Part shown: positions 1 through 58,976 of the stretch, one piece after another
Layout: each line of letters opens with the position of its first letter
Position numbering within the stretch: the stretch's first letter is position 1
Assembly: GCA_051530055.1 (NCBI GenBank)
Contig: JBMGUZ010000012.1
Coordinates: forward strand, 1-58,976
From: Neoechinorhynchus agilis
Lineage: Eukaryota; Animalia; Acanthocephala
Length of the DNA: 58,976 nucleotides
Direction: 5' to 3'
Notes under the pieces: model-generated
Database searches by the model: none
The model's input: only the letters and a program-made list of their open reading frames with translations
What the model was told of the DNA's origin: nothing
Translations under genes and position numbers: made by a program

Positions 1-3000
1 GCCTGGGCCCATCATTTATTCCACCGAACATTTGCGGATCTCGATTTGAACGATGAGTTGTCGGTTCGTGATATTTTTGACGGAACTAAATCTAACCATA
101 CGATCAAAATAAAGCGCAACACTTCGACCCTTCTTCTTATGCGCATTCTTGTTGCTGCTCAACTCTTCAAGCTCAAACTTATTTCAGAGGAAGAACTCAT
201 GGCTGGCGGTCTTGTCTCCGGATTAGGTGTTTTCTGCCCTACATTCGAGGCTCTCACCACCCGTCAAGCTCGTATTTCGATGGTCACCAGACGGTTACTT
301 TCTAGAGCTAGAGCTATCTTAGCCACAGTCTTCCCCGATCTCATCGAATCAATAATTGGACCTCCACTCCCATCTCCTTTAACTGAAAAGAGAGCTGAAG
401 GTGAACCTGTTACTGTCTTACCTCCGGAAGATCTTAATTTAGCATCTTCTATTTTGCCCGAGAAGACGATGATTCAGCAGGACCAGCTTTCTACTATCAC
501 TCAAACTTTCGGGGCCTCCCCCACTGATCTCATAAGCAGCGCCACTCCGACACCATCTCGAGCCAAATTTCGTGCGGCTGTCGACAAGGTTCTAACAAAA
601 AAAAGAATTGAGTTCAAGGAGATTCTTTCGCAAAATCAGAAACAAGTCGAATCTACGCGAGAAGCCTTGACTAAGCGTCCTCGCGATCCTGTGTTACTTG
701 GGATTTTGGAAGAGTCTAGAACGGCTCAACTTAAAATCGACTCTAGCTTGGCTCTGATAGAAAAAGTTGCAGAAGAGTTTCAAGCGCTTTCTCACCTTGA
801 CGATCTACCAGTGATGACGACCTACAACGATGATCTCGATTTGGAGTCATTACCTAACAGCCCAGTCGACCTTGGCACCGCCTTCCTAGCTTATATGACT
901 AGGGCGAAGGCTACTGTTGGTATTGCTGAGCATGTTCGTGTAGAAAAGAGAGAAAAGCGCGAGAAATACCGTAATTACAACTCGTTTGTTCCAACCGACA
1001 AGAATGGCTCATTTACGCGTGATATGGAGGCCGCCGTGCGAAACCTCAAGTACGAGGCTGCGTTCGTCGGGGCCACGACCATCACGGAGAAAGCGGATAA
1101 TGTCGAACACAAGTTAAGGAATGACGTGCGAGTTCGGGCACATTATCTTCTCAACAAAATTGGCACTTCAAAGAAAAGACTGATGGGCCTTTGCTTCGCC
1201 CACAGAAATAATCAGCCTATGCTGCATGCTCTGGCACATGGGCTGAATTCTCGCAATCAGCGCTTGTGTGCAATATTTTGTAGAGAGCTAGATCTTCTTA
1301 ATGGACAGAGTGAATTGGTCGAAAATCTGGAATGGCGCGCCACTAGGCGCACAGCTCTACTCGCGTCTGTTAGGAACAGACATTTTAGACGGTTCAGTTC
1401 TTCAGGGTGGCTCTCACCTGATGCCATCTCCACTTTAGCTGGAAACGGAGTGAGCAGTTTTACAAGCTCATATATCTCCTCCGTCCTAGCGGGTGGCGAT
1501 GGGTATGGTGAGAGGCTCTCTGAGGAGTGGAATCGTCTGATGCACTCCATGAACGGCAATTCGATTCGTAAACCCTATGTGCCGGTAGGGTACCAGATGA
1601 CTGTCGAGTTTATACAGTCAACGGATCACGTTTCTAAAGTGGTTACCGCTTTGGCCGGTAACTATTCTCTATTTCGGACGCTGCCGGCCACTACCTTTAG
1701 CATCCTGTCTACTGCGGAACCCGCATTTCTTCATCAGATAGGTATGGCCGTACAGCAGGATGATTCTTTTCTTACTGATAAAGCTAAGAAGCTCGCAGAA
1801 GCTGATGTCTCATTCTATAAAGATAAGACCTTGGAAGAGAGGAGGGCCTTGCATTATTATTTGTGCAATATGCCCCATTTGGCCGAAACTTACGGACCAA
1901 TCTGTTTCTCGCTGGATCTTTCTTATAGTACGTCTGGTCCGATCGGCGCCGAGTATAATGAACTTTGGCGCAATGAAGAATCTGTCCTAAGACCTGGTAT
2001 GAACCTCGATCCTAAAGATTTTCATATCATATCCCCTGGCCCGACGCAACCTCCGACCACCATATCGAGCAGTTCTTGTCTCGATAGGGTGTTTAGTTTA
2101 GTTCTCTCTGACGACTTGGACACATCCGCGAGGATGGATTTTACGCGATTGTTACACACTGTTAGTCAGGTGGCTCCACTTCTTCGTCGCCGAAACGAGA
2201 AGATGGCCTATCTGACACTGTGTGGTTCCGCCGCTCTCGACCATTATCGAGACGGTTCTCCGGCTACTTTTGCTCGTCTGCGAGCTATTCTATCTACTGA
2301 TAATTACCCAGCTATTACAGCCCCACCTCCAAATGGCAATTCTCGCTTAAACGGTGACATCCGTAGGATGTGGGTCTGTCAACCATTCGAAATTGTTTGG
2401 CTACGCATGTCTATAGTAGACTTCTTCAGGTGTGTGGCCGTAAATAATCTGGTCTGGAATGAAGGACCAAATGTTCATAACTCCGCGTTTGACGGCCGTA
2501 CTCTCGCTGTCATGGAGCAATACTTTCCCGCCCCTGCAGAACAGTTGCACCGTACTGTCGCCACTGTCTGGAACCCGATCCTCACTGAAGAGATTTACAT
2601 GAATCATTCTGGGGTCGAGGATCACTATTTCTCCCTAATGGATGCATTTGCTAAGGAACCCGGTAAAATATTTATCGTGGTGTCCGTCACGTTAGAGGAG
2701 ATAGCGACTCGTGTTCAGCGATTCAGTTACACGAGTTCCAGTGGGCCGGGACCTTTTCCGTATGACAATCTTGGACTTGCTATTCTTAATGGCTCTTTTC
2801 CGAACGAACCTCTCAACGAGATTCCGTGTCAAGAGGAGTTGCTGTCTTATTTAGCCCTATCCAATAACTCCCTTGAGTATCAAGTCATGGGTAGGCTGAA
2901 TGTTCCTTACGGCTCTGGTGTCAGGATAGCCTGGAATTATGATCCAGGTTTCTATTTCTATCCCCTCATCCAACTCGGCCTTCTTAAGGTCTCTGATCTC

Positions 3001-3918
3001 CCAGCGACTCAGACTAGAATGACTCCCGAGAATGAGCTGAAGTACTATTCCGCTCAGAATATTCTACCCTGTCTGAGACTTGCCATGCACAAGTTGAGTC
3101 TTCGACTGGATACTATGCAAGTTTCAGTTAAGGCGGTCACGCCTGACTCTTCCTGGACTCTGGGGTCAATCTCTGACATATTACCAACGAGTGACAGAAC
3201 TATTCTGGGTATTATTAGTGCCTATCTAGGCGCTCCGATGGCAAGAGCTTTCGCTGCCTGGGCGAGAGACCCAGAAGTTACTATCATTCACGAAAGAACT
3301 ATCTTACATTGGGTTATGATTTCTAAAGCACTCGGAATTTCGTTTGGCTCGGGGGCTTTAGCGTATTCTGAATACAATGGTAGATCCTCTGTCGGTGTGT
3401 CGTGGCAGATGGCATCTCATACTCAAGAACCGGAGTTGACGACAAAATTCTTCCTTAACAACTCCGTTTGGTCCATCGTTCCTACTGAAGATCTAGATCC
3501 CTTTAGAATAGGGCTTAATGAAATCTGCACTCCTAATCTACTGCCTCTCATCACACTGAAAGGCTTCGTTGGTGGAGCTCGCTCCGACATCACTTTTAGA
3601 GGAGCACTGCTTCCGAGGGGTTGTAGAGGTCAATATGATGTGATCACCATCGGATCTCTTTTTGCAATTCAAGTGAAAATTAATGCTCTTACGCGCCTCC
3701 GTTTTTCGCTAGCTCACATGGCAAGTTGGGAAACTCGCTTCGATAAAGGTACATTCGATGTTCCTAGAAATGAGCGCTACACCGACCCTCTCGACATTGC
3801 TTCTTGTTTCGAGGGGGACTCGTTGTTAGCACCCATGGGCCTCGAGGTCCCAACTTCTTCCAGAAAAAAGAAGACAGAGGATGCTTCAGAGCGTCCGGAT
3901 GCCTCTGCGGAGGATTGA
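1..3918 (+). CDS. Large virus-like ORF1 (>=1305 aa, open to the window edge); probable capsid/Gag polyprotein of a totivirus-like dsRNA virus, endogenised
   Basis: Frame 1 has no stop from base 1 (AWAHHLFHRTFADLDLNDELS...) to TGA at 3916-3918. It is intronless, visibly GC-richer than the flanking host DNA, and overlaps a -1-frame ORF2. A diverged paralog at 42586-45547 differs mostly at synonymous sites, so the frame is genuinely coding. The capsid identity is inferred from architecture, not from a recognised motif. Confidence 0.6.
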   Translation, partial: AWAHHLFHRTFADLDLNDELSVRDIFDGTKSNHTIKIKRNTSTLLLMRILVAAQLFKLKLISEEELMAGGLVSGLGVFCPTFEALTTRQARISMVTRRLLSRARAILATVFPDLIESIIGPPLPSPLTEKRAEGEPVTVLPPEDLNLASSILPEKTMIQQDQLSTITQTFGASPTDLISSATPTPSRAKFRAAVDKVLTKKRIEFKEILSQNQKQVESTREALTKRPRDPVLLGILEESRTAQLKIDSSLALIEKVAEEFQALSHLDDLPVMTTYNDDLDLESLPNSPVDLGTAFLAYMTRAKATVGIAEHVRVEKREKREKYRNYNSFVPTDKNGSFTRDMEAAVRNLKYEAAFVGATTITEKADNVEHKLRNDVRVRAHYLLNKIGTSKKRLMGLCFAHRNNQPMLHALAHGLNSRNQRLCAIFCRELDLLNGQSELVENLEWRATRRTALLASVRNRHFRRFSSSGWLSPDAISTLAGNGVSSFTSSYISSVLAGGDGYGERLSEEWNRLMHSMNGNSIRKPYVPVGYQMTVEFIQSTDHVSKVVTALAGNYSLFRTLPATTFSILSTAEPAFLHQIGMAVQQDDSFLTDKAKKLAEADVSFYKDKTLEERRALHYYLCNMPHLAETYGPICFSLDLSYSTSGPIGAEYNELWRNEESVLRPGMNLDPKDFHIISPGPTQPPTTISSSSCLDRVFSLVLSDDLDTSARMDFTRLLHTVSQVAPLLRRRNEKMAYLTLCGSAALDHYRDGSPATFARLRAILSTDNYPAITAPPPNGNSRLNGDIRRMWVCQPFEIVWLRMSIVDFFRCVAVNNLVWNEGPNVHNSAFDGRTLAVMEQYFPAPAEQLHRTVATVWNPILTEEIYMNHSGVEDHYFSLMDAFAKEPGKIFIVVSVTLEEIATRVQRFSYTSSSGPGPFPYDNLGLAILNGSFPNEPLNEIPCQEELLSYLALSNNSLEYQVMGRLNVPYGSGVRIAWNYDPGFYFYPLIQLGLLKVSDLPATQTRMTPENELKYYSAQNILPCLRLAMHKLSLRLDTMQVSVKAVTPDSSWTLGSISDILPTSDRTILGIISAYLGAPMARAFAAWARDPEVTIIHERTILHWVMISKALGISFGSGALAYSEYNGRSSVGVSWQMASHTQEPELTTKFFLNNSVWSIVPTEDLDPFRIGLNEICTPNLLPLITLKGFVGGARSDITFRGALLPRGCRGQYDVITIGSLFAIQVKINALTRLRFSLAHMASWETRFDKGTFDVPRNERYTDPLDIASCFEGDSLLAPMGLEVPTSSRKKKTEDASERPDASAED

Positions 3919-5072
3919 TCACTGAACGCTTTAGTTCAGAATGTCGGTCTGAGCTTAGCAACCAACTTGCAGGGAAGATGAGTCATTACTACAATCCGCG
4001 CCCTGTGAGAGTCTTTGCTAAGGCTCGCCAGAGAATATTGGCTGAACGTTGGGACTTCGTCCCTATTCATACAGGCGACATTCCTCGCGATATTCTATCA
4101 AAAATTGAAAATTATCTTAAAGTATGGAATCTCTCGGCGTCCGTTAGACAACTGTACTCGTTCCTTCTTCCATACTATCGGCTTAAGCAATTCGAATATT
4201 CTGATGTTTGGCTCCTTGACTCTTCAGGTGCTCCCTCAGCTCTAAACAATTTATGCTGGCACATTGAGTGCCCGATATGCAATATGGTCTCGATAAAGCA
4301 TGAAAGACGTGATATAGTCATTGAACTAGGTCGAGACTATTACGAAGCCAAGGTTGAAATTGCGAGTTGGGAGAACATCATTGCTGCTAAAAAATTATCT
4401 GAGCGAGAATTCTTCTCATCACTACGACCTTTAACTGCAGAGATTGAAGCAGAGGGGATGCCGCGAACTGCTTGGGTTGAGAGGGAGGCTGATTGTTCTA
4501 TTCGATACATCCCTCCCCCGACCAAAGTTTCCGAAAAGGTAGCATCTCTGTTTCCTGGTTCTGCCGCTTGGCAACGTTCATGTGCTCTAGTAAGCCGCTT
4601 AGGGCTCGATTCTCTGCTAGAACATATCTATCGATCCTTGAATCTGATTCCTACATTTGAAGGCTCATTGTTATGGATGCGCCGTGTCTCTGCTTTCGCT
4701 AAAGCCAACATAACCTCCACCCGTTACGCTACTATGCTGGTTGATCTTAACAGGTGGCTCGGTCACTTTCCGCTCCTCAGTGAAGGAGAGATGATTCAAT
4801 CAGCGCGAGAGTGGTTAGGTCGAATGAATTCATGTTTGGGCTCGGGCGGAGCTTTAATCTGGGAGAGACTTAATCTCTTACATGCTTCTGAACTTATTTC
4901 GAAAATCTTTTCCTCGATTCCAAAACAGACCGGAGCTGATATATGGCGCGAAATGCTCATTAGCCGTACATGGTCAACGCCAGGAGCATCGAACGCTGGG
5001 AATTATTCAGCCAGAAGAAATCAGCTAGGCGACGAGGAAAGTGATGGAGATGAGAGCAGAGTGTTGCGCTAA
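3804..5072 (+). CDS. ORF2 in the -1 frame; N-terminal portion of a toti-like RdRp, truncated before the catalytic motifs
   Basis: The -1 frame is open from 3774. LVDLNRWLGH...EWL, followed ~80 aa later by RTWSTPGAS, resembles the LVE..L.GR pre-motif and the W...G[SA] motif 1 of Ghabrivirales RdRps. No SG..T/GDD motifs follow. Substitutions against the paralog are synonymous in this frame from ~3840. Confidence 0.5.
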   Translation: MFRGGLVVSTHGPRGPNFFQKKEDRGCFRASGCLCGGLITERFSSECRSELSNQLAGKMSHYYNPRPVRVFAKARQRILAERWDFVPIHTGDIPRDILSKIENYLKVWNLSASVRQLYSFLLPYYRLKQFEYSDVWLLDSSGAPSALNNLCWHIECPICNMVSIKHERRDIVIELGRDYYEAKVEIASWENIIAAKKLSEREFFSSLRPLTAEIEAEGMPRTAWVEREADCSIRYIPPPTKVSEKVASLFPGSAAWQRSCALVSRLGLDSLLEHIYRSLNLIPTFEGSLLWMRRVSAFAKANITSTRYATMLVDLNRWLGHFPLLSEGEMIQSAREWLGRMNSCLGSGGALIWERLNLLHASELISKIFSSIPKQTGADIWREMLISRTWSTPGASNAGNYSARRNQLGDEESDGDESRVLR

Positions 5073-6161
5073 GGCAATAAAGAGCACAGACAGAATGACC
5101 GGGAGAGAACCCGATAATTCAAGTTCGGCGAGGTGGCCCCTGTATGGGTCATCTGCCCCAGTTAACACAAATGCCAACACTGGCAGGAGTGTTGCGTCAA
5201 CGCCTGTCCCAAATAGGGCAGGTAGAGATAGGTCTTCGACTCCAGGTGGGAGTTCGCGGACCGCGTCTAATGTCGCCGCGATTGAACCCGGTGACATTGA
5301 TGGACCGCCGTGGGTCGAATTAGCCGACTACGACGATCTTGATGGCAACGTCCAAAGATGGATGGCGCTTGACAGTCTCTATAAGAGTATGAGATCTAAA
5401 GGGACTAAGAAGGGAGAAAACCGAGTGGTTATCACCGGAAACTTGGAGGCAGAATTTCCTAGATTCTACCACAACTAATTAGGAGCATCCCTGATTGCAG
5501 GGTGCGAACTAATTGCAGATAATTCACAAATAGTGAATTGTCTTTTAAGACTGTGTGGGATGAAAACCCACTCACTCGAGAAGAAGCCTCGGACGCATTA
5601 AGTGTCCCGGGCCGAACAAAAGAATTAGAAGCGGTATCAAACTTAGCCGCTCTAATCGACTTGCTGGTGGCAGTTCCAACCGCCGCAGGTTAAAAACCAG
5701 AAGGTCCAGCTAAGATGGCCTTAGGGTTTATGGTCCACTTACTCGCAGGGATTGCCTCTGAAAAGAAGTGGGACATTCCTTTTGCCCAGTCAAGAAACTG
5801 GTGGAGGATTACGAGAAACTGGAAGAACGATTTAATTCTTCTGATCTCGCCGATCCTAGGTGGCGATAGTCACCAGGACACTTGTAACAGCAGTAATTCG
5901 CTCCCTCTGTGAAAAGAAAGAGAAGAGGTGAAGAGATTAGCTTTGATGAGGCCAAAACTCCTAAACGGTCCAATGACTGCTTGGGAACAAGCTGTTACAA
6001 GTAGGATAAACTCTTGCTTGGGCAAAATCGAATCCACAGTCGGAGAAGACTTTGAATTCATAAGACACCGGAACCCAGTAGTCTGGGAGAAGGCAATAGG
6101 GAACTATGTAGCTTTGCTCTACAATAGGACCTCAGTCTTTTCGAAAATGATAAGGGACTAA
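5041..6161 (+). pseudogene. Decayed virus-like coding segment (ORF3 and downstream frameshifted pieces)
   Basis: ORF 5041..5478 continues past TAA 5476, which is TTA in the right-arm copy. Protein-like stretches follow in shifted frames (VWDENPLTREEASDALSVP..., MALGFMVHLLAG..., KRLALMRPKLLNGPMTAWEQ...). GC level matches ORF1/2. Product unknown. Confidence 0.45.
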
Positions 6162-6194
6162 GAAGGGAGAAAACCGTGTGGTTATCACCGGAAA
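5400..6194 (+). repeat. 42-bp direct repeat (5400-5441 and 6153-6194) marking the 3' end of the virus-like cassette
   Basis: agggactaagaagggagaaaaccg(a/t)gtggttatcaccggaaa occurs twice; AT-rich DNA starts right after the second copy. Confidence 0.9.
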
Positions 6195-6348
6195 AGTGCT
6201 TGTGGGTATCATACTTATTTTTATGGACCGGTATAATTCAAACCTTCATAGCTTTATCCTTCAAACTTTGGTCTTTTCATCAAGTTCAGCCTCATTCGTC
6301 ACTGTTCTTTAAAAATTAATTTTTTCATTATTTGTAAACATGTACAGA

Positions 6349-6857
6349 CCACAATTTCAAAATATTACTCACTTGCATTGAGACGCTTCCATTCGTCCTC
6401 GGTACGAACGTAAACGATTTTCCACCATCGCCAAAGTCGCTCGATTCACCGGAGAACAAAACAGAACGACGCGAGGAATGCGGGTGCAGCGCTTTAGAAA
6501 GCGGACGGCGTTTTGGAAGTTACGAAAAAACGACAGAATTCGGGTCCGTTTTATTATTCGGCGCACATTTAAATTTTTTAGTCGACTTTTTATCGATAAA
6601 TCAATTCGGGAAAAGTAGCCACTTTGTTTGCTTGCTCAAAGTCTTAGGTTTAAAGCGATTTTATTGGGTTTTCTAAAGTGCTGAATAGAAAATGTTTATT
6701 ATTGTACCGACGGACAGTTTTAAGCTTCTTCGAATAAAAATTTAGAATCGATACTTTAAGGTGGCAATATATAAAAAATCGTTATTTTTCAATCAGAAAG
6801 ATCGATTCATGGCCTAAAAATAGAAACGCTAAAAACCCATTGCGTTTAAGTGACGGG
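6349..6857 (-). repeat. ~510-bp dispersed module B (copies 41677-42166 and 52099-52607) containing a CAA|GTGAGT splice donor that points into the virus-like cassette
   Basis: Three near-identical copies by direct comparison. Donor GT is at 6372-6371 (minus strand), 42143 and 52584 (plus strand). Confidence 0.8.
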
Positions 6858-8113: not shown

Positions 8114-8148
8114 CTGACGAAGGAGTAAACTCCGAAAATATCGGTGTC
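8114..8148 (+). ncRNA. Hammerhead-ribozyme-like core (PLE type), probably degenerate
   Basis: CTGACGA-A-GGAG-taaa-CTCC-GAAA gives an intact core and a perfect 4-bp stem II, with a GTC triplet at 8146-8148. Stems I and III do not pair convincingly. Confidence 0.35.
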
Positions 8149-8387
8149 AAAAATATACATTTGCTTGCAGGACAATCGAAAAGAAGTAACCAAACGACAT
8201 TTGAGCCTTTTGCGTCGCGGAAAAAATCAGGTCTGTATTCTATTTTTAGAACTAACACAATGGCGCCTGAGTGTTTTTTGTAAATCATTGCACTAACAAT
8301 CTAAAAGGCAACAATAGCAGAACACACGAGACGCAGAATTATGATCAACAAATCTATTGAAAAATATCTATTCTACGAAGTATAATC

Positions 8388-16672: not shown

Positions 16673-16805
16673 TGTTGTGCAGACTTGGAGACCGTCATGC
16701 GTTCGAGGTTTAATTCTTCGCTAAAGGATTGAACTGCTACAAGGACGATTTTCATAAACGGTCAGAAATCATTTCGAGAGATATTATCTGGCCTCGTCAT
16801 CGTGC

Positions 16806-42374: not shown

Positions 42375-42700
42375 ATTTCCAGCAATGATGTGCATCCAAC
42401 TATCGATTTCGACTTTAGATTCAGAGTAATCTCTACCCAACTCGATGACAATATCTTGTCTCTCATGTCTAATCGAAATCATGTTGCAGACCGGGCATTC
42501 CACATGCCAGCACAGGTTATTCAGAGCTGAAGGTGTACCAGATGCATCAGCTCAGATTCACATTCCGAACTAAATCGTTCGGTGGCTAATCCTCCGCAGA
42601 GGCAGCCGCACGCTCTGAAGCATCCTCTATCTTCGACCCTTTGGAAGAAATTCGGGCCTCGGGGCCCATGGGTGCTAACTGCGAGTCCCCCTCGAAACAC
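42375..42700 (-). pseudogene. Internally deleted fragment of the ORF2 paralog
   Basis: The -1 frame reads VFRGGLAVSTHGPRGPNFFQRVEDRGCFRACGCLCGGLATERFSSECESEL, then a ~270-nt deletion, then SGTPSALNNLCWHVECPVCNMISIRHERQDIVIELGRDY; homologous to 3804-4390. Confidence 0.85.
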
Positions 42701-45547
42701 GAGGCAATACCGAGAGGATCGGTATACCTTTCGTTCCTGGGGACATCGAAGGTGCCCTTGTCAAAGCGAGTGTCCCAACTCGCTAGATGCGCCAGAGAGA
42801 AGCGGAGACGGATATGAGCGTTAATTTTAACTTGGATCGCGAAGAGAGAACCTATAGTAATCACGTCGTACTGACCTTTGCATCCTCTAGGAAGGAGCGC
42901 CCCTCTGAAAGTGATATCAGAACGGATTCCGCCGATGAAACCTTTCAATGTGACGAGAGGCATTAGTTCGGGCGTGCAAGGTTCATTAAGTCCGATTCTG
43001 AATGGATCAAGGTCGTCGGTACAAACGACAGACCATACCGAATTGTTTAAGAAGAATTTAGTCGTCAGCTCAGCCTCCTGAGTATGAGAAGACAGTTGCC
43101 ACGACACTCCAACAGAAGACCTACCATTATGTTCGGAATACGCCATGGCCCCGGAACCGAACGATACTCCAAGTGACTTGGAGACCATGACCCAGTGTAG
43201 AATTGTTCGTTCATGAACGATAGTGACTTCCGGATCAACCGCCCATGCAGCAAAAGCTCTAGCTAGCGGAACGCCCAAATATGCGTTAATGATACCCAAA
43301 ATAGTCCTATCGCTCGTTGGTAGCACATCGGAAATCGACCCTAAAATCCAAGAAGATTCAGGCGTCACTGCTTTGATCGAAACTTGCATCGTGTCAAGCC
43401 GCAGACTTAACTTGTGTGCAGCAAGCCTAAGGCACGGCAAGATGTCAGGTGCAGAATAATACTTCAACTCGTTTTCAGGAGTCAACCTTGTTCGAGTAGC
43501 CGGAAGATCTGAGACCTTAAGAAGGCCAAACTGAATAAGAGGGTAAAAGTAGAAGCCCGGGTCGTAATTCCAGGCTAGTCTAATACCAGAATTGTACGGA
43601 ACCTTTAGCCTACCCATAAATTGGTAGTCAAGAGTATTGTTGGATAAGGCTAAGTAAGATAATAATTCCTCTTGACATGGAATTTCATTTAAAGCCTCAT
43701 TCGGAAACGAACCGTTGAGGATCGAGAGGCCGAGATTGTCGTAAGGGAAAGAACCCATTCCGTTGGAACTAGTATAGCGGAATCGCTGGACACAAGTCGC
43801 AATCTCTTCTAACGTGACGGTTACCACAATAAAAATCTTATTGGCTTGTTTAGCGAACGCATCCATCAGAGAAAAGAAATGCTCCTCGGTGCCAGAACGA
43901 TTCATATAGATCTCATCAACAAGAATCGGATTCCACACAGTAGCGACTATACGATGCAACTGCTCCGCGGGAGCCGGGAAATATTGTTCCATGACGGCGA
44001 GGGTACGACCGTCAAGTGCCGAGTTGTGGACATTTGGTCCTTCGTTCCAGACTAAATTGTTAACGGCTACGCATCTGAAGAAGTCAACGACGGACATGCG
44101 CAGCCAGACGATCTCAAACGGTTGACATACCCACATACGGCGAATATTACCATTCAAGCGAGAATTACCGTTTGGCGGCGGAGCCGTAACTGTCGGATAA
44201 TTGTCAGTAGAAAGAATTGCTCGCATTCGAGCGAACGTGGCTGGGGAGCCGTCTCGATAATGATCGAGCGCAGCAGAACCGCAAAGCGTCAGGTAAGCCA
44301 TTTTTTCGTTCCGACGACGGAGCAGTGGGGCAACCTGACTAACGGTATGTAAAAGCCGAGTGAAATCCATCCGTGCGGATGTATCCAAATCATCTGATAG
44401 AATTAAGCTATACACTCTATCGAGACAAGAGCTGCTCGAAATAGTGGTCGGAGGGTCAACCGGATCGGGTGAGAGAATGTGGAACACATTAGGGTCTAGG
44501 TCCATGCCGGGTTTCAACATGAGCTCTTGCTCACGCCATAGTTCGTTATATTCGGCACCAATTGGACCAGACATAGCATAAGATAAGCCCAAAGAGATAC
44601 AAATCGGTTCGTGAGTTTCAGTCAGATGGGGCATGTTGCAGAGATAGTAATGTAGAGCTCTCTTTTCCTCGACGCTCTTGCCTCTGTAGAAGGGTACGCT
44701 AGCCTCAGCAACTGCCCTGGCTTTATCGTTAAGAAAGCTATCGTCCTGCTCGAGGATCAGGCCTGCGTCATGGAGAAATTCGGGCTCTTTGGTAGCAATG
44801 ATGCTAAAGTTGGTGGCGGGGATGGTCCGAAACAAGGAATAATTACCAGCCAGAGCGGTAACTATTTTGGAGACATGGTCGGCCGACTGAACGAATTCAA
44901 CTGTCATTTGATATCCTACCGGCACATAGGGTCGCGGAATCGAATTGCCGTTGAGAGAGTGCATGAGGCGATTCCATTCCTCGGAAAGTCTTTCAGCATA
45001 ACCATCGCCACCAGCCAGGACGGAGGAGATATAGGAGCTAGTGAAACTGCTCACCCCGTTTCCGGCTAAAGTGGAGATGGCATCAGGTGAAAGCCACCCC
45101 GAAGAACTGAATTGCCTGAAGTGCCTATTTCTAAGCGATGCAAGCAAAGCTGTGCGCCTAGTGGCGCGCCATTCCAGACTTTCCAACAATTCGCTTTGCC
45201 CATTTAGAACATCTAACTCCCTACAAAAGGCTGCGCACAAGCGCTGGTTACGGGAGGCCAGCCCATGCGCTAGAGCATGTAACATGGGCTGATTGTTCCT
45301 ATGAGCAAAGCAGAGACCCATTAATCTCTTCTTTGATATTCCGATTTTATTAAGAAGGTGATGCGCGCGAACTCGCACATCATTACGAATCTTATGTTCG
45401 ATATTGTCCGACTTTTCCGCGATGGTTGTAGCCCCGACGAACGCAGCCTCATACTTGAGGTTTCGTACGGCAGCCTCCATGTCACGGGTGAAAGAACCGT
45501 TCTTATCTGTAGGGACGAATGAATTGTAATTACGATACCTATCGCGC
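42586..45547 (-). CDS. Diverged, 5'-truncated paralog of virus-like ORF1 (~985 aa uninterrupted)
   Basis: Colinear with ORF1 from R.RYRNYNSFVPTDKNGSFTRDM to ...ASAED*. About 80-85% aa identity by eye with saturated synonymous differences. The 5' end is fused to the 121-bp array. Confidence 0.85.
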
Positions 45548-50690: not shown

Positions 50691-51404
50691 TTTACTCCTT
50701 CGTCAGGACCCTGAAAAACCCACGCAATCTATAAAGGTTGAGATAGAACAGAGTTCAATGAGAAGGTTAACTCGTCCCTTTGGTTAAGCACAATTACACG
50801 TCTGCCAAGGCCGTTCACCGCGGAAATGATCGGCCTACACTTCAGCAATAGTTACAGCCCGTTTTATTAGAAAGAAGATCACAAAGAATGGGACCCATTT
50901 ACCTTTGGGTCCCCATTAGCATTCCAGTTCATAGTTGTTCCAATAAAGTGTAGTCGAGGGATGTCCGTTCGAGTGGGAATATCCGGTCGCAGGGATACCA
51001 ATTCGAGTGGGCCTATCCAGCCGGGGGATGTCCGTTCCTTTGAGAATATCCGGCGGGGTTGGAAGGTCCGTTCTGGTGGGAATTGATGCTTATTGTTTGC
51101 AGGAGCGCTTGTAAAAAGAGAAAGGAAAAAATTATGTATTTGGGATTGGAATACGAATTAGGTAGGATGGGAATATCCGCGGTATGGATGGGAATTGGCA
51201 GTTCCGAATTAATTACATTTTGTTTAAGTTGAATTGCTTCCACTTCTTTGAAAGCGACTGTAAAAAAATCATCGAAACCCTGTGATGAGGACCTGAGGCA
51301 TCTTATGCGTTTTGATCATTGGGTTACAATGCTGGAGTACGCAAAGGTCGTCGGATGTAAGTGCTGAACTTCTTCAATTGGCGCCTAGCAATCACTTTAC
51401 GTCT

Positions 51405-51569
51405 CCACACAAATAACAGAATTTTTAAGCGCCCATCATTGAATTGTCTATGTCATGTACCTCATTACTATTCATAAACACAAACTTCCTTCTGTTGTAC
51501 GCCAGGAATCCCAAAGTTGTCGTTGCCACACAAAGAACAGAATTTTTAAGCGCGAAACATTGAATCGTC
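51405..51569. repeat. Solo ~1.4-unit insertion of the 121-bp minisatellite
   Basis: Replaces the 27-nt segment 7387-7413 of the left arm. Confidence 0.88.
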
Positions 51570-52794
51570 AGTAATGCCGAGATCATCTCATCTTGTACAC
51601 TTCGTCCCCTTAGCGACTTCGTTTTGATCAATGCTTTGACCGATTTCAAGGCCAAATGTTTACCATGCGGAGGATTGGGTACAATGCTTCGACTTATCCG
51701 GTCAACCCCTTTTCCGGAACTTTATAATAGTCTTTCAAGGATATCATCTCCTCTTGGTAGAGCCACTGAAACCTTCTTGAAACTCAAACGACATCTCAGC
51801 CTCCACAAATCAGTCGATCTCCCATTTTTACTTGAAGGTTGAATTTGTCATCAGGTTTTTTTGTTGGTGCGAACGATGATCCTTTGGATATCAACCCATA
51901 ATCCTCAGCGCTTACGCAATCCTCCGGTATGCCGGTTGCTCTATTCAGGATCGAAGCCTTAACAATTATGCTTCGAATCCATAAGCTTTGAAAATTTGCT
52001 GATCAATCGGTTCTTTTCTCCCTCCTTTGCTTGAACATCCACTACTCTTAAAAGGGCAATGAACTTCGCTCGTTTTCATCCAGACTTTCCATAAGTTGCC
52101 CGTCACTTAAACGCAATGGGTTTTTAGCGTTTCTATTTTTAGGCCATGAATCGATCTTTCTGATTGAAAAATAACGATTTTTTATATATTGCCACCTTAA
52201 AGTATCGATTCTAAATTTTTATTCGAAGAAGCTTAAAACTGTCCGTCGGTACAATAATAAACATTTTCTATTCAGCACTTTAGAAAACCCAATAAAATCG
52301 CTTTAAACCTAAGACTTTGAGCAAGCAAACAAAGTGGCTACTTTTCCCGAATTGATTTATCGATAAAAAGTCGACTAAAAAATTTAAATGTGCGCCGAAT
52401 AATAAAACGGACCCGAATTCTGTCGTTTTTTCGTAACTTCCAAAACGCCGTCCGCTTTCTAAAGCGCTGCACCCGCATTCCTCGCGTCGTTCTGTTTTGT
52501 TCTCCGGTGAATCGAGCGACTTTGGCGATGGTGGAAAATCGTTTACGTTCGTACCGAGGACGAATGGAAGCGTCTCAATGCAAGTGAGTAATATTTTGAA
52601 ATTGTGGTCTGTACATGTTTACAAATAATGAAAAAATTAATTTTTAAAGAACAGTGACGAATGAGGCTGAACTTGATGAAAAGACCAAAGTTTGAAGGAT
52701 AAAGCTATGAAGGTTTGAATTATACCGGTCCATAAAAATAAGTATGATACCCACAAGCACTTTTCCGGTGATAACCACACGGTTTTCTCCCTTC

Positions 52795-55180
52795 TTAGTC
52801 CCTTATCATTTTCGAAAAGACTGAGGTCCTATTGTAGAGCAAAGCTACATAGTTCCCTATTGCCTTCTCCCAGACTACTGGGTTCCGGTGTCTTATGAAT
52901 TCAAAGTCTTCTCCGACTGTGGATTCGATTTTGCCCAAGCAAGAGTTTATCCTACTTGTAACAGCTTGTTCCCAAGCAGTCATTGGACCGTTTAGGAGTT
53001 TTGGCCTCATCAAAGCTAATCTCTTCACCTCTTCTCTTTCTTTTCACAGAGGGAGCGAATTACTGCAGTTACAAGTGTCCTGGTGACTATCGCCACCTAG
53101 GATCGGCGAGATCAGAAGAATTAAATCGTTCTTCCAGTTTCGTAATCCTCCACCAGTTTCTTGACTGGGCAAAAGGAATGTCCCACTTCTTTTCAGAGGC
53201 AATCCCTGCGAGTAAGTGGACCATAAACCCTAAGGCCATCTTAGCTGGACCTTCTGGTTTTTAACCTGCGGCGGTTGGAACTGCCACCAGCAAGTCGATT
53301 AGAGCGGCTAAGTTTGATACCGCTTCTAATTCTTTTGTTCGGCCCGGGACACTTAATGCGTCCGAGGCTTCTTCTCGAGTGAGTGGGTTTTCATCCCACA
53401 CAGTCTTAAAAGACAATTCACTATTTGTGAATTATCTGCAATTAGTTCGCACCCTGCAATCAGGGATGCTCCTAATAAGTTGTGGTAGAATCTAGGAAAT
53501 TCTGCCTCCAAGTTTCCGGTGATAACCACACGGTTTTATCCCTTCTTAGTCCCTTTAAATCTTATACTCTTATAGAGACTGTCAAGCGCCATCCATCTTT
53601 GGACGTTGCCATCAAGATCGTCGTAGTCGGCTAATTCGACCCACGGCGGTCCATCAATGTCACCGGGTTCAATCGCGGCGACATTAGACGCGGTCCGCGA
53701 ACTCCCACCTGGAGTCGAAGACCTATCTCTACCTGCCCTATTTGGGACAGGCGTTGACGCAACACTCCTGCCAGTGTTGGCATTTGTGTTAACTGGGGCA
53801 GATGACCCATACAGGGGCCACCTCGCCGAACTTGAATTATCGGGTTCTCTCCCGGTCATTCTGTCTGTGCTCTTTATTGCCTTAGCGCAACACTCTGCTC
53901 TCATCTCCATCACTTTCCTCGTCGCTAGCTGATTTCTTCTGGCTGAATAATTCCCAGCGTTCGATGCTCCTGGCGTTGACCATGTACGGCTAATGAGCAT
54001 TTCGCGCCATATATCAGCTCCGGTCTGTTTTGGAATCGAGGAAAAGATTTTCGAAATAAGTTCAGAAGCATGTAAGAGATTAAGTCTCTCCCAGATTAAA
54101 GCTCCGCCCGAGCCCAAACATGAATTCATTCGACCTAACCACTCTCGCGCTGATTGAATCATCTCTCCTTCACTGAGGAGCGGAAAGTGACCGAGCCACC
54201 TGTTAAGATCAACCAGCATAGTAGCGTAACGGGTGGAGGTTATGTTGGCTTTAGCGAAAGCAGAGACACGGCGCATCCATAACAATGAGCCTTCAAATGT
54301 AGGAATCAGATTCAAGGATCGATAGATATGTTCTAGCAGAGAATCGAGCCCTAAGCGGCTTACTAGAGCACATGAACGTTGCCAAGCGGCAGAACCAGGA
54401 AACAGAGATGCTACCTTTTCGGAAACTTTGGTCGGGGGAGGGATGTATCGAATAGAACAATCAGCCTCCCTCTCAACCCAAGCAGTTCGCGGCATCCCCT
54501 CTGCTTCAATCTCTGCAGTTAAAGGTCGTAGTGATGAGAAGAATTCTCGCTCAGATAATTTTTTAGCAGCAATGATGTTCTCCCAACTCGCAATTTCAAC
54601 CTTGGCTTCGTAATAGTCTCGACCTAGTTCAATGACTATATCACGTCTTTCATGCTTTATCGAGACCATATTGCATATCGGGCACTCAATGTGCCAGCAT
54701 AAATTGTTTAGAGCTGAGGGAGCACCTGAAGAGTCAAGGAGCCAATGAGGGAGCACCTGAAGAGTCAAGGAGCCAAACATCAGAATATTCGAATTGCTTA
54801 AGCCGATAGTATGGAAGAAGGAACGAGTACAGTTGTCTAACGGACGCCGAGAGATTCCATACTTTAAGATAATTTTCAATTTTTGATAGAATATCGCGAG
54901 GAATGTCGCCTGTATGAATAGGGACGAAGTCCCAACGTTCAGCCAATATTCTCTGGCGAGCCTTAGCAAAGACTCTCACAGGGCGCGGATTGTAGTAATG
55001 ACTCATCTTCCCTGCAAGTTGGTTGCTAAGCTCAGACCGACATTCTGAACTAAAGCGTTCAGTGATCAATCCTCCGCAGAGGCATCCGGACGCTCTGAAG
55101 CATCCTCTGTCTTCTTTTTTCTGGAAGAAGTTGGGACCTCGAGGCCCATGGGTGCTAACAACGAGTCCCCCTCGAAACAA
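52795..55180 (-). pseudogene. Right-arm copy of ORF2/ORF3, frameshifted by a 31-nt duplication; ORF2 and ORF3 are in frame with each other here
   Basis: Duplication at 54715-54776. A 1-nt difference (ctagcgacg vs ctaggcgacg) fuses ...RRNQL to ATRKVMEMR.... Confidence 0.8.
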
Positions 55181-58100
55181 GAAGCAATGTCGAGAGGGTC
55201 GGTGTAGCGCTCATTTCTAGGAACATCGAATGTACCTTTATCGAAGCGAGTTTCCCAACTTGCCATGTGAGCTAGCGAAAAACGGAGGCGCGTAAGAGCA
55301 TTAATTTTCACTTGAATTGCAAAAAGAGATCCGATGGTGATCACATCATATTGACCTCTACAACCCCTCGGAAGCAGTGCTCCTCTAAAAGTGATGTCGG
55401 AGCGAGCTCCACCAACGAAGCCTTTCAGTGTGATGAGAGGCAGTAGATTAGGAGTGCAGATTTCATTAAGCCCTATTCTAAAGGGATCTAGATCTTCAGT
55501 AGGAACGATGGACCAAACGGAGTTGTTAAGGAAGAATTTTGTCGTCAACTCCGGTTCTTGAGTATGAGATGCCATCTGCCACGACACACCGACAGAGGAT
55601 CTACCATTGTATTCAGAATACGCTAAAGCCCCCGAGCCAAACGAAATTCCGAGTGCTTTAGAAATCATAACCCAATGTAAGATAGTTCTTTCGTGAATGA
55701 TAGTAACTTCTGGGTCTCTCGCCCAGGCAGCGAAAGCTCTTGCCATCGGAGCGCCTAGATAGGCACTAATAATACCCAGAATAGTTCTGTCACTCGTTGG
55801 TAATATGTCAGAGATTGACCCCAGAGTCCAGGAAGAGTCAGGCGTGACCGCCTTAACTGAAACTTGCATAGTATCCAGTCGAAGACTCAACTTGTGCATG
55901 GCAAGTCTCAGACAGGGTAGAATATTCTGAGCGGAATAGTACTTCAGCTCATTCTCGGGAGTCATTCTAGTCTGAGTCGCTGGGAGATCAGAGACCTTAA
56001 GAAGGCCGAGTTGGATGAGGGGATAGAAATAGAAACCTGGATCATAATTCCAGGCTATCCTGACACCAGAGCCGTAAGGAACATTCAGCCTACCCATGAC
56101 TTGATACTCAAGGGAGTTATTGGATAGGGCTAAATAAGACAGCAACTCCTCTTGACACGGAATCTCGTTGAGAGGTTCGTTCGGAAAAGAGCCATTAAGA
56201 ATAGCAAGTCCAAGATTGTCATACGGAAAAGGTCCCGGCCCACTGGAACTCGTGTAACTGAATCGCTGAACACGAGTCGCTATCTCCTCTAACGTGACGG
56301 ACACCACGATAAATATTTTACCGGGTTCCTTAGCAAATGCATCCATTAGGGAGAAATAGTGATCCTCGACCCCAGAATGATTCATGTAAATCTCTTCAGT
56401 GAGGATCGGGTTCCAGACAGTGGCGACAGTACGGTGCAACTGTTCTGCAGGGGCGGGAAAGTATTGCTCCATGACAGCGAGAGTACGGCCGTCAAACGCG
56501 GAGTTATGAACATTTGGTCCTTCATTCCAGACCAGATTATTTACGGCCACACACCTGAAGAAGTCTACTATAGACATGCGTAGCCAAACAATTTCGAATG
56601 GTTGACAGACCCACATCCTACGGATGTCACCGTTTAAGCGAGAATTGCCATTTGGAGGTGGGGCTGTAATAGCTGGGTAATTATCAGTAGATAGAATAGC
56701 TCGCAGACGAGCAAAAGTAGCCGGAGAACCGTCTCGATAATGGTCGAGAGCGGCGGAACCACACAGTGTCAGATAGGCCATCTTCTCGTTTCGGCGACGA
56801 AGAAGTGGAGCCACCTGACTAACAGTGTGTAACAATCGCGTAAAATCCATCCTCGCGGATGTGTCCAAGTCGTCAGAGAGAACTAAACTAAACACCCTAT
56901 CGAGACAAGAACTGCTCGATATGGTGGTCGGAGGTTGCGTCGGGCCAGGGGATATGATATGAAAATCTTTAGGATCGAGGTTCATACCAGGTCTTAGGAC
57001 AGATTCTTCATTGCGCCAAAGTTCATTATACTCGGCGCCGATCGGACCAGACGTACTATAAGAAAGATCCAGCGAGAAACAGATTGGTCCGTAAGTTTCG
57101 GCCAAATGGGGCATATTGCACAAATAATAATGCAAGGCCCTCCTCTCTTCCAAGGTCTTATCTTTATAGAATGAGACATCAGCTTCTGCGAGCTTCTTAG
57201 CTTTATCAGTAAGAAAAGAATCATCCTGCTGTACGGCCATACCTATCTGATGAAGAAATGCGGGTTCCGCAGTAGACAGGATGCTAAAGGTAGTGGCCGG
57301 CAGCGTCCGAAATAGAGAATAGTTACCGGCCAAAGCGGTAACCACTTTAGAAACGTGATCCGTTGACTGTATAAACTCGACAGTCATCTGGTACCCTACC
57401 GGCACATAGGGTTTACGAATCGAATTGCCGTTCATGGAGTGCATCAGACGATTCCACTCCTCAGAGAGCCTCTCACCATACCCATCGCCACCCGCTAGGA
57501 CGGAGGAGATATATGAGCTTGTAAAACTGCTCACTCCGTTTCCAGCTAAAGTGGAGATGGCATCAGGTGAGAGCCACCCTGAAGAACTGAACCGTCTAAA
57601 ATGTCTGTTCCTAACAGACGCGAGTAGAGCTGTGCGCCTAGTGGCGCGCCATTCCAGATTTTCGACCAATTCACTCTGTCCATTAAGAAGATCTAGCTCT
57701 CTACAAAATATTGCACACAAGCGCTGATTGCGAGAATTCAGCCCATGTGCCAGAGCATGCAGCATAGGCTGATTATTTCTGTGGGCGAAGCAAAGGCCCA
57801 TCAGTCTTTTCTTTGAAGTGCCAATTTTGTTGAGAAGATAATGTGCCCGAACTCGCACGTCATTCCTTAACTTGTGTTCGACATTATCCGCTTTCTCCGT
57901 GATGGTCGTGGCCCCGACGAACGCAGCCTCGTACTTGAGGTTTCGCACGGCGGCCTCCATATCACGCGTAAATGAGCCATTCTTGTCGGTTGGAACAAAC
58001 GAGTTGTAATTACGGTATTTCTCGCGCTTTTCTCTCTTTTCTACACGAACATGCTCAGCAATACCAACAGTAGCCTTCGCCCTAGTCATATAAGCTAGGA

Positions 58101-58976
58101 AGGCGGTGCCAAGGTCGACTGGGCTGTTAGGTAATGACTCCAAATCGAGATCATCGTTGTAGGTCGTCATCACTGGTAGATCGTCAAGGTGAGAAAGCGC
58201 TTGAAACTCTTCTGCAACTTTTTCTATCAGAGCCAAGCTAGAGTCGATTTTAAGTTGAGCCGTTCTAGACTCTTCCAAAATCCCAAGTAACACAGGATCG
58301 CGAGGACGCTTAGTCAAGGCTTCTCGCGTAGATTCGACTTGTTTCTGATTTTGCGAAAGAATCTCCTTGAACTCAATTCTTTTTTTTGTTAGAACCTTGT
58401 CGACAGCCGCACGAAATTTGGCTCGAGATGGTGTCGGAGTGGCGCTGCTTATGAGATCAGTGGGGGAGGCCCCGAAAGTTTGAGTGATAGTAGAAAGCTG
58501 GTCCTGCTGAATCATCGTCTTCTCGGGCAAAATAGAAGATGCTAAATTAAGATCTTCCGGAGGTAAGACAGTAACAGGTTCACCTTCAGCTCTCTTTTCA
58601 GTTAAAGGAGATGGGAGTGGAGGTCCAATTATTGATTCGATGAGATCGGGGAAGACTGTGGCTAAGATAGCTCTAGCTCTAGAAAGTAACCGTCTGGTGA
58701 CCATCGAAATACGAGCTTGACGGGTGGTGAGAGCCTCGAATGTAGGGCAGAAAACACCTAATCCGGAGACAAGACCGCCAGCCATGAGTTCTTCCTCTGA
58801 AATAAGTTTGAGCTTGAAGAGTTGAGCAGCAACAAGAATGCGCATAAGAAGAAGGGTCGAAGTGTTGCGCTTTATTTTGATCGTATGGTTAGATTTAGTT
58901 CCGTCAAAAATATCACGAACCGACAACTCATCGTTCAAATCGAGATCCGCAAATGTTCGGTGGAATAAATGATGGG
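55066..58976 (-). CDS. Right-arm copy of virus-like ORF1, protein identical to the left copy, open to the window edge
   Basis: The ORF track shows identical 1290-aa translations. Confidence 0.6.
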   Translation of the reverse strand, partial: HHLFHRTFADLDLNDELSVRDIFDGTKSNHTIKIKRNTSTLLLMRILVAAQLFKLKLISEEELMAGGLVSGLGVFCPTFEALTTRQARISMVTRRLLSRARAILATVFPDLIESIIGPPLPSPLTEKRAEGEPVTVLPPEDLNLASSILPEKTMIQQDQLSTITQTFGASPTDLISSATPTPSRAKFRAAVDKVLTKKRIEFKEILSQNQKQVESTREALTKRPRDPVLLGILEESRTAQLKIDSSLALIEKVAEEFQALSHLDDLPVMTTYNDDLDLESLPNSPVDLGTAFLAYMTRAKATVGIAEHVRVEKREKREKYRNYNSFVPTDKNGSFTRDMEAAVRNLKYEAAFVGATTITEKADNVEHKLRNDVRVRAHYLLNKIGTSKKRLMGLCFAHRNNQPMLHALAHGLNSRNQRLCAIFCRELDLLNGQSELVENLEWRATRRTALLASVRNRHFRRFSSSGWLSPDAISTLAGNGVSSFTSSYISSVLAGGDGYGERLSEEWNRLMHSMNGNSIRKPYVPVGYQMTVEFIQSTDHVSKVVTALAGNYSLFRTLPATTFSILSTAEPAFLHQIGMAVQQDDSFLTDKAKKLAEADVSFYKDKTLEERRALHYYLCNMPHLAETYGPICFSLDLSYSTSGPIGAEYNELWRNEESVLRPGMNLDPKDFHIISPGPTQPPTTISSSSCLDRVFSLVLSDDLDTSARMDFTRLLHTVSQVAPLLRRRNEKMAYLTLCGSAALDHYRDGSPATFARLRAILSTDNYPAITAPPPNGNSRLNGDIRRMWVCQPFEIVWLRMSIVDFFRCVAVNNLVWNEGPNVHNSAFDGRTLAVMEQYFPAPAEQLHRTVATVWNPILTEEIYMNHSGVEDHYFSLMDAFAKEPGKIFIVVSVTLEEIATRVQRFSYTSSSGPGPFPYDNLGLAILNGSFPNEPLNEIPCQEELLSYLALSNNSLEYQVMGRLNVPYGSGVRIAWNYDPGFYFYPLIQLGLLKVSDLPATQTRMTPENELKYYSAQNILPCLRLAMHKLSLRLDTMQVSVKAVTPDSSWTLGSISDILPTSDRTILGIISAYLGAPMARAFAAWARDPEVTIIHERTILHWVMISKALGISFGSGALAYSEYNGRSSVGVSWQMASHTQEPELTTKFFLNNSVWSIVPTEDLDPFRIGLNEICTPNLLPLITLKGFVGGARSDITFRGALLPRGCRGQYDVITIGSLFAIQVKINALTRLRFSLAHMASWETRFDKGTFDVPRNERYTDPLDIASCFEGDSLLAPMGLEVPTSSRKKKTEDASERPDASAED

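What the first reader, a model, noticed from the sequence alone, without database searches (positions are those of the whole stretch)
1..5072. Endogenised dsRNA-virus-like gag/pol cassette with an intact giant ORF1, in three copies from two lineages
Seen: an intronless, GC-richer ORF of >=1305 aa with no stop or frameshift, in a window where the PLE, RNase H and ORF2 sequences are all damaged. It overlaps a -1-frame ORF and exists as two identical-protein copies plus a ~80-85% paralog. Knowledge: Ghabrivirales (toti-like) genomes have a capsid ORF followed by a -1-frame RdRp whose N-terminal part carries an LVE..L.GR pre-motif and W...G[SA] motif 1; ORF2 has LVDLNRWLGH and RTWSTPGAS at that spacing. 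Inference: a toti-like virus was reverse-transcribed and integrated at least twice, or once long ago. The capsid ORF was kept intact while the RdRp catalytic core was lost both times, which suggests domestication or dominant-negative/antiviral use of the capsid.
Basis: partly seen in the sequence, partly recalled or inferred. Interest (0 to 1): 0.88.

Follow-up and report, generated by a model that had tools for sequence, protein, structure and literature searches.

The report
Toti-like virus fossils in thorny-headed worm
A parasitic worm's genome holds DNA copies of an undescribed double-stranded RNA virus related to tapeworm viruses; the long open capsid gene is likely intact because the insertion is young, not because the worm uses it.

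Summary
The cassette is real. It is an endogenous copy of a toti-like dsRNA virus (Ghabrivirales) in an acanthocephalan genome; NCBI labels the window's paralog as Neoechinorhynchus agilis. ORF1 (at least 1305 aa, cut by the contig end) carries the IMNV/Omono capsid-cleavage motif NKxMHxxNGN and matches ORF1 of Schistocephalus solidus toti-like viruses 1 and 3 (HHalign 99%). ORF2 is 84% identical to a gene model on another contig that runs on into an RdRp core, so ORF2 is an RdRp cut before its catalytic motifs. WGS and Hi-C reads show the DNA form.

Domestication is not supported. The two identical copies are arms of one 8-kb inverted repeat. The RdRp core survives elsewhere. Of 20 other ORF1-like models, 18 are fragments. 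The synonymous bias is as strong in the dead ORF2 (9/9) as in ORF1 (18/20), so it dates from the viral phase, while variants among near-identical alleles look neutral (4 of 5 non-synonymous). Best reading: repeated integration of a circulating, undescribed virus lineage, with the young copies still open. Toti-like EVEs are known in yeasts, insects and Trichinella; my searches found none reported in Acanthocephala.

The parts
1..3918 (+). Copy A ORF1: toti-like capsid polyprotein, at least 1305 aa, 5' end missing (contig edge)
1531..1560 (+). NRLMHSMNGN (aa 511-520), matching the NKxMHxxNGN cleavage motif that creates the major-capsid N-terminus in IMNV and Omono River virus
   Evidence: expected by chance 3.6e-7; PMC7968656 passages
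1561..3915 (+). Predicted mature major capsid protein, 785 aa (706-741 aa follow the motif in the three viral relatives)
   Evidence: fold not shown
3774..3918 (+). ORF1/ORF2 overlap in the -1 frame; no canonical slippery heptamer shared by copies A and C
3774..5030 (+). Copy A ORF2, viral part: RdRp N-terminal region up to motif 1; virus-like sequence ends about nt 5030, before motifs A-E (the frame itself runs to 5072)
5031..6348 (.). Flank joined to the cut RdRp: 46% GC, no Pfam match in the frames scanned, a 12-aa match at 5047-5082 to gene model P0008; origin unexplained
6349..6857 (.). Host repeat that also lies downstream of copy C (41677-42166, 95%) and in the first exon of P0008
53925..58976 (-). 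Copy B: inverted twin of copy A; ORF1 55066-58974 identical; ORF2 frame broken by a 31-bp tandem duplication (54715-54776); one base fewer at the junction
50691..58976 (-). Right arm of the about 8-kb inverted repeat whose left arm is 8-8129
42380..45546 (-). Copy C: second viral lineage; ORF1 open for 986 codons and bounded 5' by a 121-bp tandem array; ORF2 has an internal deletion and ends near 42380

Best explanation
The locus is a DNA copy of a toti-like double-stranded RNA virus (capsid polyprotein plus a cut RNA polymerase gene) in the genome of a thorny-headed worm, one of many such insertions, and its capsid frame is likely still open because the insertion is young and decaying neutrally. 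Shown: viral identity of both ORFs, the DNA form, and many copies of graded divergence. Inferred: viral plus-strand RNA was reverse-transcribed by a host retroelement in the germ line and inserted in pieces into a repeat-rich, segmentally duplicated region; different viral variants entered at different times; copies A and B come from one insertion by inverted duplication, or are two alleles joined in assembly; in the virus, ORF1 would self-cleave after NGN to release a capsid protein of about 785 aa, and ORF2 would be read as a -1 fusion.
For: Of 21 hits among 1.84 billion proteins, 17 are N. agilis models, 2 are Schistocephalus solidus toti-like virus 1/3 ORF1s and 2 are unnamed Logan proteins; none is a cellular or transposon family. 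Profile against profile with those viral ORF1s: probability 99.0, E 3.4e-18, 599 columns. The cleavage motif stands in copies A, B, C and in all three full-length viral relatives. P0013, on another contig, is 84% identical to ORF2 over 360 aa and continues into a core with Pfam RdRP_1 (E 1.9e-7) and RdRP_4 (E 2.8e-5), both above cut-off. Raw WGS and Hi-C reads cover 30 of 30 bins of both stretches laid, and cross the junction at 5028. A against C: pS 0.73, pN 0.084. Read variants on copy A are synonymous in 18 of 20 ORF1 sites and 9 of 9 ORF2 sites, whereas 4 of 5 variants among near-identical copy-C alleles are non-synonymous (neutral expectation 77%; Fisher p 0.005). 18 of 20 other ORF1-like models are partial, at 31-92% identity, on 7 contigs, three of them 7.8-19 Mb. 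A frame of this length survives 0.5% neutral divergence without a stop with probability 0.48 (0.13 if indels are added), so youth suffices.
Against: No age was measured: no orthologous locus in a sister species was available. The variant counts use only the 40 best-supported rows printed per call (of 592 and 302), and the copy-C test rests on 5 sites. Two lineages (A/B and C) both have an open frame across the whole predicted capsid while their ORF2s are broken in three different ways, which protein-level selection would also produce. Run X2 (an RNA guess) holds copy C at depth 21 against under 2 for silent flank, which suggests transcription. The fragment status of the other copies is read from gene models, not from their DNA. 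No target-site duplication, poly(A) or retroelement junction was shown, and no capsid fold was obtained (pLDDT 35). The living virus was not found.
Confidence: 0.8

Rival explanations
1. The worm keeps ORF1 as a counterfeit capsid that poisons assembly of the related virus (negative complementation), or has co-opted it as a host protein.
For: Open frames over the whole predicted capsid in two lineages. Copy C is present in all four runs laid, with 1-3 differences per 1.2-kb contig in X1. Possible transcription in X2. Precedent in Debaryomyces hansenii (PMC6166632, abstract) and in planthoppers (PMC10636211, abstract). Negative complementation would not need an exact sequence, so neutral-looking amino-acid changes do not exclude it.
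Against: 4 of 5 copy-C allele variants are non-synonymous, and one alters the cleavage motif in 26 of 31 X8 reads and 17 of 23 X6 reads. The X2 contig of copy C lacks 284 nt (not a multiple of 3, no GT-AG ends) and 2 nt at 42686, the latter also in 2 of 19 X8 and 2 of 14 X6 DNA reads. A/B depth suggests the insertion is not fixed. No orthologue outside this species among the 21 hits.
Confidence: 0.1
2. The insertions act at RNA level, as templates of antiviral piRNA or siRNA in an EVE cluster; the open frame is incidental.
For: Copies are clustered and mosaic: P0013 strings together two ORF1 lineages and ORF2 pieces, and P0005/P0006 join ORF1-like sequence to a second toti-like lineage. The region is repeat-rich. 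X2 contigs run from viral sequence into flank. nrEVE-derived piRNAs are established in mosquitoes (own knowledge; abstracts in the listing).
Against: No small-RNA data were seen, the strand is unknown, and an acanthocephalan Piwi pathway was not examined. This reading is compatible with the best explanation rather than exclusive of it.
Confidence: 0.25
3. The sequence is a free RNA virus or a contaminant joined to host DNA by misassembly.
For: The window is a small contig built of nested inverted repeats, and the A/B duplication may itself be an assembly product.
Against: Raw genomic WGS and Hi-C reads cover both ORFs and cross the junction. Family members lie on 7.8-, 16.4- and 19.4-Mb contigs. 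The copies carry deletions and frameshifts.
Confidence: 0.02

Closest known systems
Schistocephalus solidus toti-like viruses 1 and 3 (tapeworm; QJD26155.1, QJD26159.1; PMC7305300)
   Same: Two-ORF layout; ORF1 of about 1620-1700 aa with the same cleavage motif and collinear similarity over about 600 columns; host is a fish-infecting helminth; the paper reports vertical transmission (passages).
   Different: 18-19% identity overall, 30-32% at best locally; these are exogenous RNA viruses, and the paper found no match in the tapeworm genome. Their RdRps were not compared here.
IMNV and Omono River virus (artivirus-type toti-like viruses; PMC7968656)
   Same: NKxMHxxNGN cleavage motif upstream of the major capsid protein; RdRp motif B of the GLPSGWKWT type in P0013, shared with locus L014 (24% over 298 aa, E 3.5e-8; that L014 is Giardia lamblia virus, and that IMNV shares the motif, is recalled).
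   Different: No 2A-like motif in the visible ORF1 or in any fetched relative; no PDB sequence match for ORF1, ORF2, P0013 or the SsTV ORF1s.
Toti-like EVEs of Trichinella (PMC13483474), planthoppers (PMC10636211) and yeasts (PMC6166632, PMC13756089, PMC2805616)
   Same: Non-retroviral dsRNA-virus genes in host nuclear DNA, in many copies; in Trichinella all but one appear recently inserted (section 16).
   Different: The Trichinella EVEs tabulated are 509-635 bp; these are 3-5 kb with a long open ORF1. Domestication or function was shown in planthoppers and yeasts; here the tests point the other way. Different host phylum.
Rhabdovirus-like EVEs of Pomphorhynchus laevis (PMC12548735)
   Same: Multiple, fragmented RNA-virus EVEs in an acanthocephalan (passages).
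   Different: Negative-strand Mononegavirales, RdRp only; that paper's main text has no hit for 'totivir' or 'Ghabrivirales'.

Membership tests
Ghabrivirales (toti-like) derived sequence | Capsid ORF followed by an RdRp ORF on one segment | tested here: met
   ORF1 then -1-frame ORF2 in copies A, B, C; the same order in P0013
Ghabrivirales (toti-like) derived sequence | RdRp of the RdRP_4 family with motifs A, B, C | tested here: met
   Not in the window, where ORF2 is cut at about 5030 and has no Pfam hit; met through P0013, 84% identical over 360 aa, RdRP_4 23.7 bits against a cut-off of 22
Ghabrivirales (toti-like) derived sequence | ORF1 homologous to ORF1 of classified toti-like viruses | tested here: met
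   hmmsearch E 1.7e-8 and 3.9e-4 to SsTV3 and SsTV1; hhalign 99.0%; NCBI places SsTV1 in Ghabrivirales
Ghabrivirales (toti-like) derived sequence | Toti-like T=1 capsid fold | tested here: inconclusive
   AlphaFold2 pLDDT 35, pTM 0.25; Foldseek TM at most 0.11
Ghabrivirales (toti-like) derived sequence | Programmed -1 frameshift signal | tested here: inconclusive
   No canonical heptamer shared by A and C; the -1 frame is somewhat more constrained in the overlap (w 0.33 against 0.55, 48 codons); ORF2's first Met is Leu in P0013, which favours a fusion
Artiviridae-type (IMNV/OmRV) | NKxMHxxNGN cleavage motif before the major capsid protein | tested here: met
   NRLMHSMNGN at aa 511-520, one conservative change
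Artiviridae-type (IMNV/OmRV) | 2A-like motifs upstream in ORF1 | tested here: not met
   None in the window ORF1 or the 32 fetched proteins, including P0007 and P0025 that reach further upstream; the true 5' end is not in view. Not filed in this family.
Any ICTV family within Ghabrivirales | RdRp phylogeny and identity thresholds against exemplar viruses | not tested
Endogenous viral element (nrEVE) | Present as host genomic DNA with host flanks | tested here: met
   WGS and Hi-C raw reads, junction-crossing reads, homologous models on Mb-scale contigs
Domesticated EVE gene | Purifying selection after insertion | tested here: not met
   4 of 5 allele variants non-synonymous against 77% neutral expectation; small sample
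Domesticated EVE gene | Orthologous locus kept across species | not testable with these tools
   No eukaryote genomes searchable; no other acanthocephalan among the 21 hits
Domesticated EVE gene | Expressed as protein | not testable with these tools
   Only contigs of a run guessed to be RNA

The most novel reading that the evidence does not exclude
This worm is endogenising a live, undescribed dsRNA virus lineage now, in multi-kilobase pieces that still segregate, and the youngest transcribed capsid copies already act against the virus as dominant-negative protein or small-RNA templates: EVE-based immunity caught at its birth in a phylum with no described dsRNA virus.
Probability: 0.15. Interest if true: 0.7.

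Novelty: new member of a known kind. Interest (0 to 1): 0.42.

Why it matters
It records an undescribed toti-like virus lineage of acanthocephalans, distantly related to tapeworm viruses, and extends the NKxMHxxNGN capsid-cleavage motif to that group. At least 20 NCBI 'hypothetical proteins' of this fish parasite are viral fossils and should be re-annotated. The graded series (31-99% identity between copies, some apparently unfixed) is a usable natural time series for how long RNA-virus insertions stay open, and it shows that a low dN/dS between EVE paralogs is inherited from the virus and is no proof of domestication.

Tried and rejected
Pfam on 18 window frames: no family for ORF1 or ORF2. 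PDB sequence searches gave nothing for ORF1, ORF2, P0005, P0013 and P0031, and one E 0.27 chance hit for P0028. The ORF2 search among longer proteins found none in 6743 candidates (the length window excluded P0013). IMG/VR and JGI scans with ORF1, ORF2 and the P0013 core found no relative; tblastn against phages found none. I first took P0008-P0011 and L001-L013 as the partner RdRp lineage and rejected this: they show no BLAST, HMM or hhalign similarity to ORF2 and their capsid ORFs lack the motif; they are a second toti-like lineage. AlphaFold2 with 18 sequences and Foldseek were uninformative. The ESM Atlas gave no usable hit for P0031 and could not read the window's proteins. No RNA holder is on record; X2-X5 are guesses. 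The 284-nt skip in X2 is not a GT-AG intron. A tree of 12 stretches separates the three viral rows from the nine worm rows (98/99) but leaves most inner forks open, so it gives no order of integration. No whole genome was available. Earlier scan findings: none. Joining pieces of different copies into one virus genome was not done, which leaves the full genome layout and frameshift site open.
Full report
1. Observation. Nt 1-3918 (+) is one open frame of 1305 codons that runs off the 5' end; a second frame, 3774-5072, overlaps it in the -1 frame. Chance is excluded (4e-36). Both are 47% GC against 41-42% for host ORFs. The same ORF1 stands at 55066-58974 (-), but as part of an inverted repeat, 8-8129 against 50691-58976, with 0 mismatches over the first 4200 nt, a 31-bp duplication in B's ORF2, one base fewer in B at 5028, and shared host flank. 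Copy C (42586-45564, -) is 76% nt and 85% aa identical; its ORF2 has an internal deletion and stops near 42380. The window thus holds two insertions' worth of sequence, not three.

2. Host. The cluster of copy C is labelled by NCBI as a Neoechinorhynchus agilis (Acanthocephala) hypothetical protein on a 58,976-base contig. No whole genome was on hand.

3. ORF1. Pfam and PDB give nothing. A profile of three copies run over 1.84 billion proteins gave 21 hits at E up to 0.001: 17 N. agilis models, ORF1 of Schistocephalus solidus toti-like virus 3 (E 1.7e-8) and 1 (E 3.9e-4), and two unnamed Logan proteins, one of 1664 aa on an 8089-nt contig. Profile against profile gives probability 99.0, E 3.4e-18 over 599 columns. 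Residues 511-520 read NRLMHSMNGN. PMC7968656 (passages) states that the major capsid N-terminus of IMNV and Omono River virus is made by cleavage after NKxMHxxNGN. The motif is expected 3.6e-7 times by chance, occurs exactly three times in the six frames of the window (copies A, B, C) and stands in all three full-length viral relatives. It leaves 785 aa as predicted capsid. The fold could not be tested: pLDDT 35, Foldseek TM at most 0.11. P0007 and P0025 show that ORF1 extends at least 376-549 aa upstream of the window, in line with the 1624-1696 aa of the relatives.

4. ORF2. Alone it has no Pfam or PDB match. P0013, a 2578-aa model on another, 19.6-kb contig, is 99% identical to copy C's ORF1, 84% identical to ORF2 over 360 aa (nt 3951-5030), and continues through RdRp motifs A, B and C with RdRP_1 E 1.9e-7 and RdRP_4 E 2.8e-5, both above cut-off. 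Copy A's viral sequence therefore ends about nt 5030, 22 residues from the start of motif 1. The P0013 core is 24% identical over 298 aa to the RdRp of L014 (E 3.5e-8, pairwise), a 6277-nt genome that I recall as Giardia lamblia virus. A -1 fusion is likely but unshown: no canonical slippery heptamer is shared by A and C, while ORF2's first Met is Leu in P0013. A second, unrelated toti-like lineage is also endogenous in this genome (P0008 and the C-half of P0005; relatives P0009-P0011 and L001-L013); it does not match ORF2.

5. DNA form and copy number. Of 9 runs listed, 5 hold the stretch, from 2 studies; 3 raw DNA runs of a third study were added by species label. I laid 4 of the 9. WGS (X8) and Hi-C (X6), one sample, cover 30 of 30 bins of 1-8300 and of 33700-45540. 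Both forms of the 5028 indel are in DNA reads (7 of 13 and 6 of 8 show B's form). At 90% likeness, mean depth on A/B (13 bins, 1386-4986) is 11.8 against 22.1 on copy C (8 bins) in X8, and 16.9 against 23.0 in X6. Single-copy depth cannot exceed about 33 if the genome is 46.2 Mb (PMC12690905, passage) and if these runs are the same species. Two fixed loci A and B are thus not supported in that sample; they may be alleles, unfixed, or an assembly fold-back. The 31-bp duplication is not among the joints printed (26 rows not shown). One of these runs may be the source of the assembly and so not independent.

6. Is ORF1 kept by selection? A against C gives pS 0.73 and pN 0.084 over 986 codons; the 57 shared ORF2 codons give pS 0.94 and pN 0.12. 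Among the 40 variant rows printed for copy A (of 592), 18 of 20 in ORF1 and 9 of 9 in ORF2 are synonymous (one row in the overlap left out). Since ORF2 is broken in all three window copies, this constraint must date from replicating viruses, which implies separate integrations of different viral variants. In contrast, of the 5 rows printed inside copy C's ORF1 (40 of 302 rows shown), 4 are non-synonymous, as neutrality predicts (77%); Fisher p 0.005 against the former set and 0.02 against the A-C counts. The same four changes separate copy C from P0013, and one falls in the cleavage motif (26 of 31 X8 reads, 17 of 23 X6 reads). Of 20 other ORF1-like models, on 7 contigs and at 31-92% identity, only P0003 and P0013 span about 90% or more of the window's ORF1, P0003 with internal gaps. 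An open frame of this length is unremarkable below about 0.5% neutral divergence. Against this reading: the sample of five sites is small, gene models are not DNA, no age was measured, and both window lineages are open over the whole capsid.

7. Expression. X2 is only guessed to be RNA. Its profile is unlike DNA: 21 on copy C against 0.1-1.9 on silent flank, where DNA run X1 has 146-184 against 732-1492. Its copy-C contig runs about 230 nt into host flank, so it comes from the insertion, but it lacks 284 nt without GT-AG ends and 2 nt more. Contigs give neither strand nor level, so transcription is suggested, not shown.

8. Mechanism. Most likely (0.8): a toti-like virus infecting the worm's germ line was repeatedly reverse-transcribed by host retroelements and inserted in pieces. 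Penelope-type sequence lies in the window (GIY-YIG E 5.5e-4, below Pfam's cut-off; the RT assignment is from recalled motifs, with no Pfam hit), but no junction ties it to the insertion. Young copies are open, old ones fragmented. A small-RNA role (0.25) is compatible and untested; a counterfeit-capsid or domesticated role (0.1) has precedent but no support here.

9. Prior knowledge. Toti-like EVEs are described in yeasts (PMC6166632 and PMC13756089, abstracts; PMC2805616, search listing), planthoppers (PMC10636211, abstract and outline) and Trichinella (PMC13483474, passages and sections 15-16). SsTV1/3 are described in PMC7305300 (passages). For Acanthocephala I found only rhabdovirus-like EVEs of Pomphorhynchus laevis (PMC12548735, passages). 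Searches: acanthocephala + endogenous viral (5 papers); acanthocephala + RNA virus + RdRp (3 papers); Neoechinorhynchus + genome + virus since 2020 (8 papers, 7 listed); a four-term search in which none of the 20 listed, of 161, mentions acanthocephala. The N. agilis paper names viruses only in its references. No supplements were opened; those of PMC12548735 and PMC12690905 could list such sequences, and subscription journals are not searched.

10. Verdict. A real, well-supported toti-like EVE family, apparently unreported for this phylum and pointing to an undescribed virus lineage: a new member of a known kind. The domestication claim is not supported. Interest 0.42.

Noticed in passing
window 37780-40071 (-), partial copy 16733-17539 (+): Intronless bifunctional mRNA capping enzyme (DSPc + mRNA_cap_enzyme + cap_C); the block is read at about 150x against 22x for copy C in X8, so it is amplified roughly 6-7-fold, with small deletions among copies.
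   Followed up: partly
P0008, P0005 C-half; L001-L013: A second endogenous toti-like lineage in the same genome, 33-42% identical to RdRps on 5.1-5.5-kb metagenome contigs whose capsid ORFs of about 900 aa lack the NGN motif.
   Followed up: partly
window 5031-6348: GC-rich flank fused to the cut RdRp; a long frame 5523-6161 with two stops, no Pfam match, and a 12-aa match (9 of 12) at 5047-5082 to P0008; read depth above the EVE's. Possibly another viral or transposon remnant; unexplained.
   Followed up: partly
window 8388-11151 (-) and 29962-33631 (+): Acidic protein with a likely signal peptide, built of 45-aa (135-bp) tandem repeats, in 19 and 27 copies.
   Followed up: no
window 13809-15499 (+) and 47241-49389 (-): Frameshifted Penelope-like reverse transcriptase with a GIY-YIG stretch, as an inverted pair at 98% identity.
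   Followed up: no
whole window: The contig is built of nested inverted near-identical blocks (100-99.6, 98, 97, 94 and 98.5% identity), suggesting inverted segmental duplication or haplotypes joined in assembly.
   Followed up: partly
window 27782-29086 (-): Lys/Arg-rich 434-aa ORF resembling a linker histone H1 or protamine-like protein by eye; no Pfam hit.
   Followed up: no
P0007 C-terminus: An ORF1 5' fragment is fused in the gene model to a tail that by recall resembles the endonuclease end of an R2-type retrotransposon; no Pfam support.
   Followed up: no
run X1, record 8: A 1289-nt contig covers 45149-45540 and runs about 900 nt beyond the stretch laid, so in that sample copy C may continue upstream differently from the 121-bp array in the window.
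   Followed up: no
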